A stretch of DNA of 46,345 nt, from sequence record LC918680.1. One strand, written 5' to 3'. This document shows, in pieces, positions 33,378 to 35,614 of the stretch; within the stretch, counting starts at the first letter, position 1; each line of letters starts with the position of its first letter. This DNA comes from a phage. The notes beneath the pieces are model-generated. The model saw nothing but the letters and a program-made list of their open reading frames with translations. It was not told where the DNA came from and did not search any database. Made by a program: the position numbers and the translations under genes.

Positions 33378-34511
33378 ATGGCAGCAGCAAAAATTACCAC
33401 CGAGCAGTTGATCGAAGAACTGAAAAACGGCCTGACTAACAAGGCGATTGCAGAGAAGTACGGAATGAACATTCGAAACGTTGAGCTTCGTCGTAGCAAG
33501 TTGGCTAAGAGTGGGGTTGGGCATGGTAATGAAGGCATCAAGAAGCTAGTTCCTGATGGCTATCTTGTTAAAGGCACTTCAACAATGATTGATGCGGATG
33601 GTAATGAGAAGCTGCGCTGGGTTAAAACTTCCATCGACGAACAGAAACAAGAAGAGATGCTTCAGCAGATTGTTCAGGCGCTTACAGATGAGCTCCCTCG
33701 AGAGACTCCGAAACCACTCAGTGAATCAAGCTATGAGGACACCTTGAGCCTCTACCCCGTGTTTGATGTGCATATTGGCGCAATGGCTCACCATGCAGAG
33801 TGTGGGGAGAACTACAGTACAGAAATTGCAGAGCGAGTGCTTAACCAATACTTTGATTATGCAGTTGCTAAGGCCCCGAATTCATCAAAAGCCGTATTAC
33901 TGATTGGTGGAGACTTCCTTCACTCGGATGGAATGGAAGCTGTAACTCCAACCAGCAAGCACGTACTTGATCAAGATAGCCGTTATCATAAACTTGTCTA
34001 CGTAGCTGTTCGTGCAACTCGCCGCGCCGTCAGTAAGATGCTTGACAAGCATAAAGAGGTTGAGGTTCAGATTATACCAGGCAACCACGACCTTTCTGGG
34101 ATGATTTGGCTTCGAGCTGCAATGGCTGCCTTCTACATGGATGAGCCTCGTGTAAATGTTGATGCCTCACCAGCCGCTCTTCACGTGACGGAGTTTGGTA
34201 AAACATTGTTGGGTTACTGCCATGGTCATGAATTGCGAAAGCCTGACACTCGTCTTTCAACTCTTGCGCGCGACCATCGCAAAGCATTTGGTAATGCTGA
34301 ATACGTTTATACACATAGTGGCCATTATCATCATCAGACGGTTACTGAGGGTAATCTTGGAATTGATGAGTCACACGGTCAGTTGGGTGCTAAAGATGCG
34401 TACAGCGCAAACGGAGGGTATCGCTCTTATCGTCAGGCCTCAGTAATTATCTATAGCTCAGAGTACGGTGAAGTTGGTCGATTCACTTGCCGACCTGAAA
34501 TGTTTAAGTAA
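33378..34511 (+). CDS. metallophosphoesterase (calcineurin-like) with N-terminal HTH-like segment
   Basis: Motifs VFDVHIG, IGGDFLHSDG, IPGNHD, YCHGHE, THSGHYHH. Confidence 0.75.
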   Translation: MAAAKITTEQLIEELKNGLTNKAIAEKYGMNIRNVELRRSKLAKSGVGHGNEGIKKLVPDGYLVKGTSTMIDADGNEKLRWVKTSIDEQKQEEMLQQIVQALTDELPRETPKPLSESSYEDTLSLYPVFDVHIGAMAHHAECGENYSTEIAERVLNQYFDYAVAKAPNSSKAVLLIGGDFLHSDGMEAVTPTSKHVLDQDSRYHKLVYVAVRATRRAVSKMLDKHKEVEVQIIPGNHDLSGMIWLRAAMAAFYMDEPRVNVDASPAALHVTEFGKTLLGYCHGHELRKPDTRLSTLARDHRKAFGNAEYVYTHSGHYHHQTVTEGNLGIDESHGQLGAKDAYSANGGYRSYRQASVIIYSSEYGEVGRFTCRPEMFK

Positions 34512-34526
34512 TAGAACTTTTTGTTA
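34512..34526 (+). promoter_or_regulatory. boundary motif copy 9 (degenerate)
   Basis: TAGAACTTTTTGTTA right after phosphoesterase stop. Confidence 0.4.
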
Positions 34527-34584
34527 ATAAAGCCTCAAAGGATTGAGGCAAAATGAATAAACGATAACGAGATGAGGAGTTGTA

Positions 34585-35058
34585 ATGATTTACGTGTTTG
34601 ATATTGATGGAACTATTGCTAACAATGAACATAGAAGCCACCTCTTACCATCTAGTGACCTTCACTTGACTTCAAGTTGGAGTGATTACAATAGAGCCTG
34701 TTCTGGAGATTCACCGATAATTCCAATGATAAACATGATGAATGCGTTAGCTGAGTTATCGCCAGTTTACATCATGACTTCAAGAAGTGACGAAGTCGAA
34801 TGTATGACGCTTGAATGGCTTCAGTATAATAATATTAATTATGATGGAATATATATGAGGAGTAGATTGGATAACAGAAATGACTATATCATTAAAGAGA
34901 TGTGGCTAAATGATTTGTGTAATGGTGACAAAGCAAGTGTGATAATCTTTGAGGATAATCCTAATGTTATCAGTCACATAAGGAATTGCGGATATACTGT
35001 AATGTCAGTTTGTGAATATAAAGAATTACCAAAAGACTGCGAATCTCACGGAGAATAA
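34585..35058 (+). CDS. HAD-superfamily phosphatase/nucleotidase
   Basis: HAD motif I FDIDGTIA at N-terminus; 157 aa. Confidence 0.55.
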   Translation: MIYVFDIDGTIANNEHRSHLLPSSDLHLTSSWSDYNRACSGDSPIIPMINMMNALAELSPVYIMTSRSDEVECMTLEWLQYNNINYDGIYMRSRLDNRNDYIIKEMWLNDLCNGDKASVIIFEDNPNVISHIRNCGYTVMSVCEYKELPKDCESHGE

Positions 35059-35059
35059 A

Positions 35060-35614
35060 ATGAAAAAGTTAATCATCCTTAATGCACCCCCTGGTGCTGG
35101 AAAAGATACAGTTGCAGATATCATTGTTAATCTTGGAATTTGCAAGGATAAGGTTTCATTCAAGTCACCAATGTTTAATGTTGCAAAAGGAATACTATCA
35201 AGCGATGAGTTTGATGGATTTATTAAGAATTACGATGACCGAGAGTACAAAGAATCACCACATGAATTTCTTGGTGGAATGACGGTTCGTGAATTTATGA
35301 TTTGGATTAGTGAGTCAGTTATGAAGCCAGTCTTTGGTGATGATGTTTTCGGTAAAAGGCTAGCGCAATCACTTGGTGATGGTTGCTATATCTGTGCTGA
35401 TGGTGGCTTCGCTAGCGAGATTAATACTCTCATTGATTCAGGGGTTGAAGTTACTTTGATTAGACTTTTTAGGCCTGGCTATACTTTTGATGGAGATAGC
35501 CGCTCCTACATTCGCGGTGTCTGCGCAAGAGAAATTGACGTTCATGTTGTAGATGGTGATATTGATGGAACCTCTGCTTTGGTAATGCACGCAATAAATA
35601 GCACGAATTGCTAA
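35060..35614 (+). CDS. P-loop kinase (dNMP kinase-like or polynucleotide kinase-like)
   Basis: Walker A NAPPGAGKDT; ATG 35060 directly after HAD gene stop (track start 35012 overlaps); C-terminus NSTNC encoded by boundary motif. Confidence 0.6.
   Translation: MKKLIILNAPPGAGKDTVADIIVNLGICKDKVSFKSPMFNVAKGILSSDEFDGFIKNYDDREYKESPHEFLGGMTVREFMIWISESVMKPVFGDDVFGKRLAQSLGDGCYICADGGFASEINTLIDSGVEVTLIRLFRPGYTFDGDSRSYIRGVCAREIDVHVVDGDIDGTSALVMHAINSTNC
35599..35613 (+). promoter_or_regulatory. boundary motif copy 10
   Basis: TAGCACGAATTGCTA encoding kinase C-terminus NSTNC. Confidence 0.6.

What the first reader, a model, noticed from the sequence alone, without database searches (positions are those of the whole stretch)
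33378..35614. Cluster of metallophosphoesterase, HAD phosphatase and P-loop kinase
Three consecutive genes encode a calcineurin-like phosphoesterase with an N-terminal HTH-like segment, a small HAD hydrolase (DxDGT) and a P-loop kinase (GAGKDT). HAD phosphatase plus kinase is the domain content of polynucleotide kinase-phosphatase, here reversed and split into two ORFs. The set could serve nucleic-acid end healing (countering host RNA-cleaving defences) or dNMP metabolism.
Basis: partly seen in the sequence, partly recalled or inferred. Interest (0 to 1): 0.5.

Follow-up and report, generated by a model that had tools for sequence, protein, structure and literature searches.

The report
T1-like phage nuclease, phosphatase, dNMP kinase
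These three neighbouring genes of a T1-like coliphage are real, but they are an already described DNA and nucleotide-metabolism cluster whose kinase is a deoxynucleotide (dNMP) kinase, not a split RNA-repair enzyme.

Summary
Window 33378-35614 carries three co-oriented genes:
- a 377-aa metallophosphoesterase (MPE) with an N-terminal three-helix segment;
- a 157-aa HAD phosphatase (DIDGT);
- a 184-aa P-loop kinase (GAGKDT), whose true start is ATG 35060, not GTG 35012.

The window is a Drexlerviridae (Rtp/ACG-M12-like) coliphage.

**HAD.** It belongs to the Pnkp-phosphatase family (PF25109) and keeps every T4 catalytic residue. It also shares PHROG 415 with T5 Dmp, a 5'-dNMP phosphatase, so its substrate is unresolved.

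**MPE.** It resembles nuclease-type enzymes (PolD DP1, SbcD, Mre11), not the Clostridium thermocellum Pnkp (CthPnkp) phosphoesterase.

**Context.** I found no recognisable ligase in the genome. The same layout occurs in Rao1. The gene order exonuclease, "PNK", dNMP kinase upstream of the lysis genes was already noted for Drexlerviridae (PMC13164509).

The trio also occurs in Pectobacterium phage PP99 and Yersinia phage vB_YenM_12. HAD and kinase each occur alone in many other phages.

**Verdict.** This is most likely a DNA-breakdown and dNTP-supply module. The split-Pnkp end-healing reading is not supported. Novelty is low.

The parts
33378..34511 (+). Metallophosphoesterase gene (377 aa), annotated in relatives as 'DNA repair exonuclease' or phosphoesterase
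33399..33509 (+). N-terminal three-helix, HTH-like segment of the MPE (residues 8-44)
   Evidence: AF2 helices 8-16, 21-27, 32-44. Weak GerE/LuxR-type profile matches, E 0.066-0.11. Pfam HTH_24 E 0.14. All sequence matches are sub-threshold.
33732..34508 (+). Catalytic metallophosphoesterase core (residues 119-377)
   Evidence: Motif residues D130, H132, D179, N236, H237, H282, H316, H318. Fold matches.
34532..34549 (.). Inverted repeat GCCTCAA-AGGA-TTGAGGC in the MPE-HAD spacer
   Evidence: In ACG-M12 an HNH endonuclease gene sits in this spacer. Function unknown.
34585..35058 (+). HAD phosphatase gene (157 aa) of the Pnkp/Dmp clade; DIDGT at 34600-34614
   Evidence: Pfam PF25109 E 1.1e-14. 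PHROG 415 E 1e-48. Profile hits Pnkp1 and T4 Pnkp. hhalign to T4 Pnkp 97.4%. T5 Dmp is in the same PHROG.
35060..35614 (+). dNMP kinase gene (184 aa); P-loop GAGKDT at 35093-35110; placed for translational coupling to the HAD gene
35673..35846 (+). 57-aa DUF7244 (SH3-like) gene, last gene of the transcription unit
   Evidence: Pfam PF23896 E 6e-28. Described as a lysis-module-associated SH3 in PMC13164509.
35873..35900 (+). Intrinsic-terminator-like hairpin plus T-run that ends the unit before the holin gene
   Evidence: 8-bp stem with 7 GC pairs, followed by TTTTTTT.

Best explanation
The three genes form the distal part of the phage's early/middle DNA-metabolism operon: helicase, VRR-NUC, small ORFs, MPE, HAD, dNMP kinase, DUF7244, terminator. 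They most likely serve DNA breakdown and deoxynucleotide supply, not RNA end-healing.

**Shown in a close ortholog.** The kinase is a broad-specificity dNMP kinase. It converts dNMPs to dNDPs with ATP, using catalytic Lys15. Host Ndk then makes the dNTPs.

**Inferred.**
- T1-like phages lack their own polymerase and ribonucleotide reductase, and they recycle host DNA. The kinase would therefore feed recycled dNMPs into phage DNA synthesis.
- The MPE is a DNA-binding, two-metal nuclease of the Mre11/SbcD/DP1 type. It would process or degrade DNA to 5'-dNMPs.
- The HAD is a Mg-dependent aspartyl-phosphatase of the Pnkp/Dmp clade. It would remove phosphomonoesters from deoxynucleotides or DNA ends. 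My preferred substrate is a 3'-phosphate (DNA 3'-P ends, 3'-dNMP or pdNp), which would otherwise block exonucleolysis or be useless to the kinase.

The genes are pathway neighbours, not subunits of one enzyme.
For: **Kinase**
- 84% identity to R1DNK. R1DNK phosphorylates dAMP, dGMP and dCMP efficiently and dTMP less well. Its K15A mutant is dead, and deleting the gene lowers dATP (10.1101/2024.12.20.629578).
- K15 is invariant in 29 homologues.
- PHROG 139 is shared with T4 gp1.

**HAD**
- Equivalents of T4 D165, D167, R176, R213, D254, K258 and D278 are D6, D8, R17, R67, D100, K104 and D124. All are invariant in A3.
- It scores higher against T4 Pnkp (37.9 bits) than against T5 Dmp (17.6 bits).
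- It is as small as the T4 phosphatase domain and lacks the T5 Dmp insertion and C-terminal tail.

**MPE**
- Intact active site.
- Nuclease-type fold neighbours.
- HTH-like N-terminus.

**Context**
- One + strand unit with a single strong terminator at 35873.
- HAD stop and kinase start are 1 nt apart.
- The same order MPE-HAD-kinase occurs in Rao1, in Autographiviridae phage PP99 next to exonuclease, endonuclease VII and DNA ligase, and in Yersinia myovirus vB_YenM_12.
- HAD lies upstream of the kinase on the same strand in 31 of 35 IMG/VR loci from contigs of about 24-52 kb, most of them probably T1-like, even where the pair sits far from the MPE.
- In Chaseviridae the kinase sits beside a dUTPase.
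- T1 and TLS degrade host DNA and reuse the nucleotides (PMC11447400).
- PMC13164509 proposes nucleotide supply for these genes.
Against: - No activity has been measured for this HAD or this MPE, or for close homologues that I could find.
- The HAD shares PHROG 415 with T5 Dmp, a 5'-dNMP phosphatase. hhalign to T5 Dmp gives 87.7%. A 5'-nucleotidase activity, which would oppose the kinase, is therefore a real possibility.
- Mre11-type nucleases normally leave 3'-OH ends, so the need for a 3'-phosphatase is conjectural.
- Deleting the Rao1 kinase caused no fitness cost in the laboratory.
- MPE, HAD and kinase are separable. The MPE is near-universal in Drexlerviridae, whereas HAD and kinase are not always beside it. 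The Edwardsiella phage has MPE and kinase without an annotated HAD.
- 45 of 47 more distant kinase loci, including L042 and L043, have no HAD within 6 kb.
Confidence: 0.5

Rival explanations
1. The HAD is a Dmp-like 5'-dNMP phosphatase paired with the kinase. It tunes or drains the dNMP pool, especially dAMP, to limit the dITP signal that the phage's own kinase provokes in hosts carrying Kongming (KomABC). On this reading it is a counter-defence or pool-balancing partner, not a salvage helper.
For: - T5 Dmp is a full-length member of PHROG 415, E 3.6e-57. This is the same family as the window HAD, E 1e-48.
- hhalign of A3 against T5 Dmp gives 87.7% over 143 columns. It includes DxDGT (T5 D22 = window D6) and the HR...N.AC..D motif.
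- T5 Dmp blocks Kongming by depleting dAMP, and Dmp homologues co-occur with phage dNMP kinases.
- The HAD lies directly upstream of the kinase, with stop and start 1 nt apart.
- The HAD allele is swapped between otherwise similar phages: 41% identity against 84% for the kinase. This could reflect an arms race.
Against: - Rao1 carries a HAD (gp57) next to its kinase. It is still Kongming-sensitive and is rescued by T5 Dmp supplied in trans.
- The window HAD lacks the 24-residue insertion and the roughly 60-residue C-terminal extension of T5 Dmp. It scores higher against T4 Pnkp.
- T5 Dmp homologues found by tblastn are confined to T5-like phages.
- A 5'-nucleotidase would work against the nucleotide recycling known for T1-like phages.
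Confidence: 0.2
2. The three genes have no specific functional link. They are independent DNA-metabolism accessories that happen to sit together at a recombination-prone end of the replication module.
For: - The HAD occurs alone in Krischvirus (after nrdB), Drulisvirus and P1.
- The kinase occurs alone in 45 of 47 more distant viral loci, and beside ligase and dUTPase in Chaseviridae.
- The MPE is in 508 of 522 Drexlerviridae regardless of the kinases.
- In T1/TLS-type genomes HAD and kinase lie elsewhere, separated by 0.7-1.5 kb.
- An HNH gene is inserted between MPE and HAD in ACG-M12.
- No fused HAD-kinase protein appears among the listed homologues.
Against: - The same three genes occur in the same order in three unrelated phage families.
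- HAD always lies upstream of the kinase on the same strand when both are present.
- The stop and start codons are arranged for translational coupling.
Confidence: 0.2
3. HAD plus kinase act as a split polynucleotide kinase-phosphatase. With the MPE, they heal broken RNA or DNA ends made by host anticodon nucleases or other nucleases.
For: - The HAD is a bona fide Pnkp-family phosphatase with all T4 catalytic residues.
- HAD and a P-loop kinase are adjacent.
- A DNA ligase follows the trio in PP99.
- Many database records label the HAD 'polynucleotide kinase'.
Against: - The kinase's close ortholog is a demonstrated dNMP kinase.
- Only the P-loop aligns to the T4 Pnk kinase.
- I found no recognisable RNA or DNA ligase in this genome. 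As far as I know, the host RtcB ligase needs unhealed 3'-P and 5'-OH ends.
- The PP99 and Edwardsiella ligases are ordinary ATP-dependent DNA ligases, not Pnkp-type.
- The 'polynucleotide kinase' label comes from PHROG 415, which also contains T5 Dmp.
Confidence: 0.05

Closest known systems
Escherichia phage Rao1 gp56-gp57-gp58-gp59 (gp58 = R1DNK, the dNMP kinase that triggers the Kongming KomABC defence)
   Same: Identical gene order: MPE, HAD, kinase, DUF7244, holin. Kinase 84% identical with Lys15 conserved. MPE 66% identical.
   Different: The HAD is a different allele, only 41% identical and 25 residues shorter at the N-terminus. Nothing has been measured for the window proteins themselves.
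T4 gp1 and T5 Dnk deoxynucleoside monophosphate kinases (PHROG 139, Pfam DNMK PF21448, PDB 1DEK)
   Different: 18% identity. About 57 residues shorter than T4 gp1. The window protein itself has no Pfam DNMK hit; 5 of 29 homologues hit it weakly. R1DNK accepts dAMP and dCMP, which the T4 record says gp1 does not.
T4 polynucleotide kinase-phosphatase (PseT), C-terminal HAD 3'-phosphatase domain; also Capnocytophaga Pnkp1
   Same: Pfam HAD_PNKP above threshold. hhalign 97.4% over T4 residues 155-298. DxDGT, Arg, Ser/Thr-Gly-Arg, DxRxDxxxK and DD motifs conserved. Similar minimal size.
   Different: It is a stand-alone protein. No Pnk-type kinase is fused or adjacent. I found no partner RNA ligase. 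It carries an extra HRxxLLP...W..N.AC segment, shared with T5 Dmp. Substrate untested.
T5 Dmp, deoxynucleoside-5'-monophosphatase (anti-Kongming factor)
   Same: Same PHROG 415. The nucleophile Asp aligns (T5 D22 = D6). The N-terminal motif is shared. It co-occurs with a phage dNMP kinase.
   Different: T5 Dmp is 244 aa, with a 24-residue insertion and a C-terminal extension. The profile score is weak, 17.6 bits. In T5 it is a pre-early gene in the terminal repeat, far from the kinase. Rao1's HAD does not protect against Kongming.
Mre11/SbcD and archaeal PolD DP1 metallophosphoesterase nucleases
   Different: No Rad50/SbcC-like partner in the genome. It has an N-terminal HTH-like domain and beta-hairpin instead of a capping domain. 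12-16% identity. Nuclease activity is untested.

Membership tests
T4-type polynucleotide kinase-phosphatase (Pnkp) | HAD 3'-phosphatase domain with DxDxT and the T4-essential residues R176, R213, D254, K258 and D278 | tested here: met
   D6, D8, T10, R17, R67, D100, K104 and D124 are invariant in A3 and aligned to the T4 residues. The list of T4-essential residues is from my own knowledge of the Shuman-laboratory mutagenesis.
T4-type polynucleotide kinase-phosphatase (Pnkp) | Pnk-type 5'-OH polynucleotide kinase domain | tested here: not met
T4-type polynucleotide kinase-phosphatase (Pnkp) | Kinase and phosphatase in one polypeptide, kinase N-terminal | tested here: not met
   Two ORFs, phosphatase first. 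No fused homologue among the listed relatives: lengths 149-233 aa for the kinase and 88-158 aa for the HAD.
T4-type polynucleotide kinase-phosphatase (Pnkp) | Partner ligase to seal the healed ends | tested here: not met
   No ligase is annotated in the syntenic ACG-M12 genome. Every window ORF of 250 aa or more has an ACG-M12 counterpart of another function, except the LAGLIDADG ORF 29261-30115. Three other window-specific ORFs (104, 222 and 243 aa) have no Pfam hit.
T4-type polynucleotide kinase-phosphatase (Pnkp) | Activity on polynucleotide 5'-OH and 3'-P ends | not testable with these tools
   Needs enzyme assays.
Phage dNMP kinase (T4 gp1, T5 Dnk, R1DNK) | P-loop with the catalytic Lys (GxGKD-T) | tested here: met
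   G14, K15 and D16 are invariant in 29 homologues. K15A inactivates R1DNK.
Phage dNMP kinase (T4 gp1, T5 Dnk, R1DNK) | Family profile membership | tested here: met
   PHROG 139 E 2e-43, and T4 gp1 hits the same PHROG at 1.8e-65. The Pfam DNMK model is not reached by the window protein and is hit only weakly by 5 of 29 homologues.
Phage dNMP kinase (T4 gp1, T5 Dnk, R1DNK) | Fold of T4 gp1 (1DEK) | tested here: met
Phage dNMP kinase (T4 gp1, T5 Dnk, R1DNK) | Close orthology to a biochemically characterised member | tested here: met
   84% identity over 183 of 184 residues to Rao1 gp58. Its activity is reported in 10.1101/2024.12.20.629578.
T5 Dmp-type 5'-deoxynucleotidase | Same protein family as T5 Dmp | tested here: inconclusive
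   Same PHROG 415, but only 17.6 bits against the A3 profile and 87.7% by hhalign. The T5 insertion and C-terminal extension are absent.
T5 Dmp-type 5'-deoxynucleotidase | Hydrolysis of 5'-dNMPs | not testable with these tools
   Indirect evidence only: Rao1 carries a homologous HAD and is still Kongming-sensitive.
Calcineurin-like metallophosphoesterase nucleases (Mre11/SbcD/DP1) | Five conserved metal-binding motifs | tested here: met
   D130, H132, D179, N236, H237, H282, H316 and H318 are invariant or nearly invariant in 48 sequences. Pfam Metallophos falls just below its threshold, 19.7 against 21.5 bits.
Calcineurin-like metallophosphoesterase nucleases (Mre11/SbcD/DP1) | Nuclease-type fold neighbours | tested here: met
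Calcineurin-like metallophosphoesterase nucleases (Mre11/SbcD/DP1) | Rad50/SbcC ATPase partner | tested here: not met
   No such gene in the window or in ACG-M12.
Bacterial Pnkp (Clostridium thermocellum type) end-healing phosphoesterase | MPE domain closest to the CthPnkp or lambda-phosphatase clade, with a Pnkp-type ligase domain | tested here: not met

The most novel reading that the evidence does not exclude
The short PHROG-415 HAD may be a dedicated partner of the phage dNMP kinase within a mobile three-gene 'DNA to dNTP' cassette (nuclease, phosphatase, kinase) that has moved between Drexlerviridae, Autographiviridae and a Yersinia myovirus.

Its job could be either of two things:
- a 3'-nucleotidase or DNA 3'-phosphatase that makes nuclease products usable by the kinase;
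- in the Rtp-type allele seen here, only 41% identical to the non-protective Rao1 allele, a dNMP phosphatase that blunts Kongming-type dITP signalling provoked by the kinase.
Probability: 0.2. Interest if true: 0.45.

Novelty: already known. Interest (0 to 1): 0.2.

Why it matters
This matters mainly as a correction.
- Hundreds of phage genomes label this HAD 'polynucleotide kinase'. Here that label invited an RNA-repair reading.
- The label comes from a PHROG that also contains T5 Dmp, a 5'-dNMP phosphatase.
- The neighbouring kinase is a dNMP kinase, now known as the trigger of the Kongming defence.

For phage biology, the residual open question is modest but testable: what do the small Pnkp/Dmp-clade phosphatase and the near-universal Drexlerviridae metallophosphoesterase do? 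Specifically, do they explain how T1-like phages, which lack a polymerase and a ribonucleotide reductase, recycle host DNA?

Tried and rejected
- **Single-sequence PDB searches.** They gave nothing for the MPE and the kinase, and only a marginal Pnkp1 hit for the HAD. Profiles and models were needed.
- **Kinase profile against PDB sequences.** It found only generic P-loops.
- **NCBIfam and PADLOC.** No meaningful hits.
- **Retron Eco2 paper.** It mentions Drexlerviridae and polynucleotide kinase together only because T4 PNK was used as a reagent.
- **Split bacterial Pnkp.** I tested whether MPE plus kinase plus the ligase seen in PP99 and the Edwardsiella phage amount to a split kinase-MPE-ligase enzyme. 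Rejected: the ligases are ordinary ATP DNA ligases, and the MPE is far from the CthPnkp phosphoesterase.
- **Fused HAD-kinase proteins.** None among the listed homologues.
- **Internal promoters.** Promoter-like sites are not above chance, 13 against 10.1 +/- 3.7.
- **Literature search** for 'Drexlerviridae' with 'metallophosphoesterase'. Zero papers.
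Full report
**What the window is.** DNA from 33000-36000 matches Escherichia phages ES and AN_ECEAS at 93% identity. It matches other Drexlerviridae (Braunvirinae: ACG-M12, SU57, MSK, Rao1, TR1) at 76-86%. Most of the longer window ORFs have counterparts in ACG-M12. TerL lies at the start of the window and TerS at the end, so the window looks like a whole, circularly permuted T1-like genome. ACG-M12 has no annotated polymerase, ribonucleotide reductase or ligase, and I found none in the window.

**Checking the observation.**
- The MPE (33378-34511) has a ribosome-binding site.
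- The HAD (34585-35058) follows a 73-nt spacer that holds a hairpin.
- The kinase really starts at ATG 35060, one base after the HAD stop, with GGAG upstream. The GTG at 35012 is an artefact of mechanical ORF calling, because all homologues begin MKKLIILN.
- A 57-aa DUF7244 gene follows, and then the only strong + strand terminator, at 35873.
- Promoter-like sites inside the cluster are not above chance.

The three genes therefore sit at the end of the helicase/VRR-NUC transcription unit, just before the lysis cassette.

**The kinase.**
- PHROGs places it in family 139, 'deoxynucleoside monophosphate kinase', at E 2e-43. It has no hit to a polynucleotide-kinase family. T4 gp1 falls in the same PHROG.
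- An AlphaFold2 model built from 29 homologues is confident, with pLDDT 92.
- By profile-profile comparison, 75 columns align to T4 gp1 (92.8%). Only the 25-column P-loop aligns to T4 Pnkp.

The decisive point is that the protein is 84% identical to Rao1 gp58. Zeng et al. (bioRxiv 10.1101/2024.12.20.629578) purified that protein as R1DNK and reported the following:
- It phosphorylates dAMP, dGMP and dCMP efficiently, and dTMP less well.
- K15A abolishes its effect.
- Deleting the gene lowers dATP.
- It is the trigger of the Kongming (KomABC) defence.

K15 is invariant in my alignment. The kinase is therefore a dNMP kinase.

**The HAD.**
- Pfam HAD_PNKP is hit above threshold.
- A 16-sequence profile spanning five phage groups finds the phosphatase domains of Capnocytophaga Pnkp1 (2.8e-17) and T4 Pnkp (1e-8 to 1e-10).
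- hhalign covers T4 residues 155-298 at 97.4%.
- The residues aligned to T4 D165, D167, R176, R213, D254, K258 and D278 are D6, D8, R17, R67, D100, K104 and D124. All are invariant.

However, T5 Dmp is the classical 5'-dNMP phosphatase, and Zeng et al. showed it to be an anti-Kongming factor. It is a full-length member of the same PHROG 415 (E 3.6e-57), whereas T4 Pnkp belongs to PHROG 505. T5 Dmp aligns to the HAD profile at 87.7%, with its nucleophile D22 on D6.

The window HAD scores higher against T4 Pnkp (37.9 bits) than against T5 Dmp (17.6 bits). It also lacks the T5 Dmp insertion and C-terminal tail.

Homology therefore places the HAD in a clade that contains both a 3'-phosphatase for polynucleotides and 3'-nucleotides and a 5'-deoxynucleotidase. 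Its own substrate cannot be read from sequence. The widespread 'polynucleotide kinase' annotation is simply the PHROG 415 label.

**The MPE.**
- PHROG 704, 'DNA repair exonuclease', at E 1e-149.
- The family is large: 4689 representatives at 50% clustering.
- All five metallophosphoesterase motifs are invariant or nearly so.
- The model has pLDDT 92. It shows an N-terminal three-helix bundle, a beta-hairpin and the catalytic core.
- The HTH call rests on structure plus sub-threshold GerE/LuxR-type matches.

A DNA nuclease is the most reasonable reading. Non-nuclease MPEs score only slightly lower, and the genome has no Rad50/SbcC partner.

**Linkage.**
- Rao1 has exactly the same layout: gp56 MPE, gp57 HAD, gp58 kinase, gp59 DUF7244, holin.
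- The trio in the same order also occurs in Pectobacterium phage PP99 (Autographiviridae). There it follows the 5'-3' exonuclease and endonuclease VII and precedes a DNA ligase.
- It occurs again in Yersinia myovirus vB_YenM_12.
- Of 80 kinase-anchored IMG/VR loci, 33 have the HAD upstream on the same strand. In 20 it is directly adjacent, and in 13 it lies 0.7-1.5 kb away with no MPE nearby, as in T1/TLS-type genomes. The other 47 have none, and most of these carry more distant kinases.
- Conversely, the HAD stands without a kinase in Krischvirus (overlapping the end of nrdB), Drulisvirus and P1.
- An Edwardsiella phage has MPE, kinase and ligase but no annotated HAD.
- Chaseviridae place the kinase between a DNA ligase and a dUTPase.
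- The ligases in these phages are ordinary ATP-dependent DNA ligases.
- No fused HAD-kinase protein was seen.

The picture is one of pathway neighbours within DNA-breakdown and precursor modules, not an obligate two-part enzyme.

**Literature.**
- PMC13164509 reports the following for Drexlerviridae. [quoted passage not shown] In phages lacking the SH3/DUF7244 gene, the genes after the exonuclease are most often 'polynucleotide kinase' and 'dNMP kinase'. The authors suggest these extend the replication module by enhancing nucleotide supply.
- PMC11447400 recalls that T1 and TLS degrade the host chromosome and reuse its nucleotides. It annotates the TLS homologues the same way.

**Most likely mechanism.**
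- The kinase converts dNMPs released from degraded DNA to dNDPs for host Ndk. The activity is shown in the ortholog; the source of the dNMPs is inferred.
- The MPE is a DNA nuclease that contributes to DNA breakdown or processing. This is inferred.
- The HAD removes a phosphomonoester from deoxynucleotides or DNA ends. I favour 3'-phosphates, because of its size and its closer match to T4 Pnkp, and because a 5'-nucleotidase would oppose recycling. This is the weakest step.

**Rivals.**
- The main rival is a Dmp-like 5'-dNMP phosphatase acting as a counterweight to the kinase or as an anti-Kongming factor.
  - Against it: Rao1 carries a homologous HAD and is still Kongming-sensitive, and it is rescued by T5 Dmp in trans.
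  - Caveat: the window's HAD allele is only 41% identical to Rao1's.
- The split-Pnkp RNA end-healing idea is not supported. The kinase is of the wrong type, the genome has no recognisable ligase, the MPE is of the wrong clade, and the two genes are separable.

**Verdict.** The HAD family and the dNMP option hold; the split-Pnkp hypothesis is not supported. The cluster is conserved, already annotated and already discussed in T1-like phages, and its kinase has a characterised near-ortholog. Remaining unknowns are the substrates of the HAD and the MPE.

Noticed in passing
window 28623-31757 (+): The replicative helicase gene is 'fractured' inside its DE|CH box into three ORFs. (1) 28623-29432 encodes the N-terminal helicase part (88% identical to ACG-M12 over the first 155 residues). 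It ends ...AIDE and is followed by an intein N block (CLTGDT...) and a stop codon. (2) 29261-30115, in another frame, is a free-standing LAGLIDADG ORF. (3) 30048-31757, in the first frame again, begins with an intein C block (...VVAHN) followed by CHMVDHM and the rest of the helicase. AN_ECEAS annotates only the C-terminal part, so this is probably not a sequencing error. It could be a split intein with a free-standing homing endonuclease, or a decayed intein.
   Followed up: partly
window 35673-35846 (+): This 57-aa ORF is DUF7244 (E 6e-28), the stand-alone SH3-like protein that PMC13164509 links to the Drexlerviridae lysis module. That paper found only seven genomes in which it occurs together with the two 'kinase' genes. 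This window and Rao1 both have the combination.
   Followed up: partly
PHROG 415; L094:124-858 (T5 dmp): T5 Dmp is an experimentally defined 5'-dNMP phosphatase. It is a full-length member of PHROG 415, which is labelled 'polynucleotide kinase'. The label therefore spreads a misleading name to stand-alone HAD genes in over a thousand phage records.
   Followed up: yes
window 33378-35614 versus L093 (Rao1) and L090 (ACG-M12): The cluster is a gene-by-gene mosaic. Against Rao1: MPE 66%, HAD 41%, kinase 84% identity. Against ACG-M12: 68%, 81% and 78%. ACG-M12 also carries an HNH endonuclease gene inserted between MPE and HAD.
   Followed up: partly
window 34532-34549 and 35620-35637: Two short GC-rich hairpins lie in the MPE-HAD spacer and just after the kinase stop. 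The scan reads them as terminator-like on the minus strand, although all flanking genes are on the plus strand. They could be RNA processing or stability elements, or recombination joints.
   Followed up: no
L084:1838-3477 (Shigella phage SSG23, Krischvirus): In this T4-like phage a 158-aa stand-alone HAD of the same family overlaps the end of nrdB by 4 nt. It lies upstream of denA and rnlA, so it sits in both a nucleotide-metabolism and an RNA-ligase neighbourhood.
   Followed up: no
window 18777-19091, 19091-19759 (+) and 20169-20900 (-): Three ORFs (104, 222 and 243 aa) downstream of the large tail-tip gene have no ACG-M12 counterpart and no Pfam hit. This is a variable region of unknown function.
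   Followed up: no
window 42990-43412 (+): A 140-aa HNH endonuclease ORF absent from ACG-M12, probably a homing endonuclease insertion.
   Followed up: no
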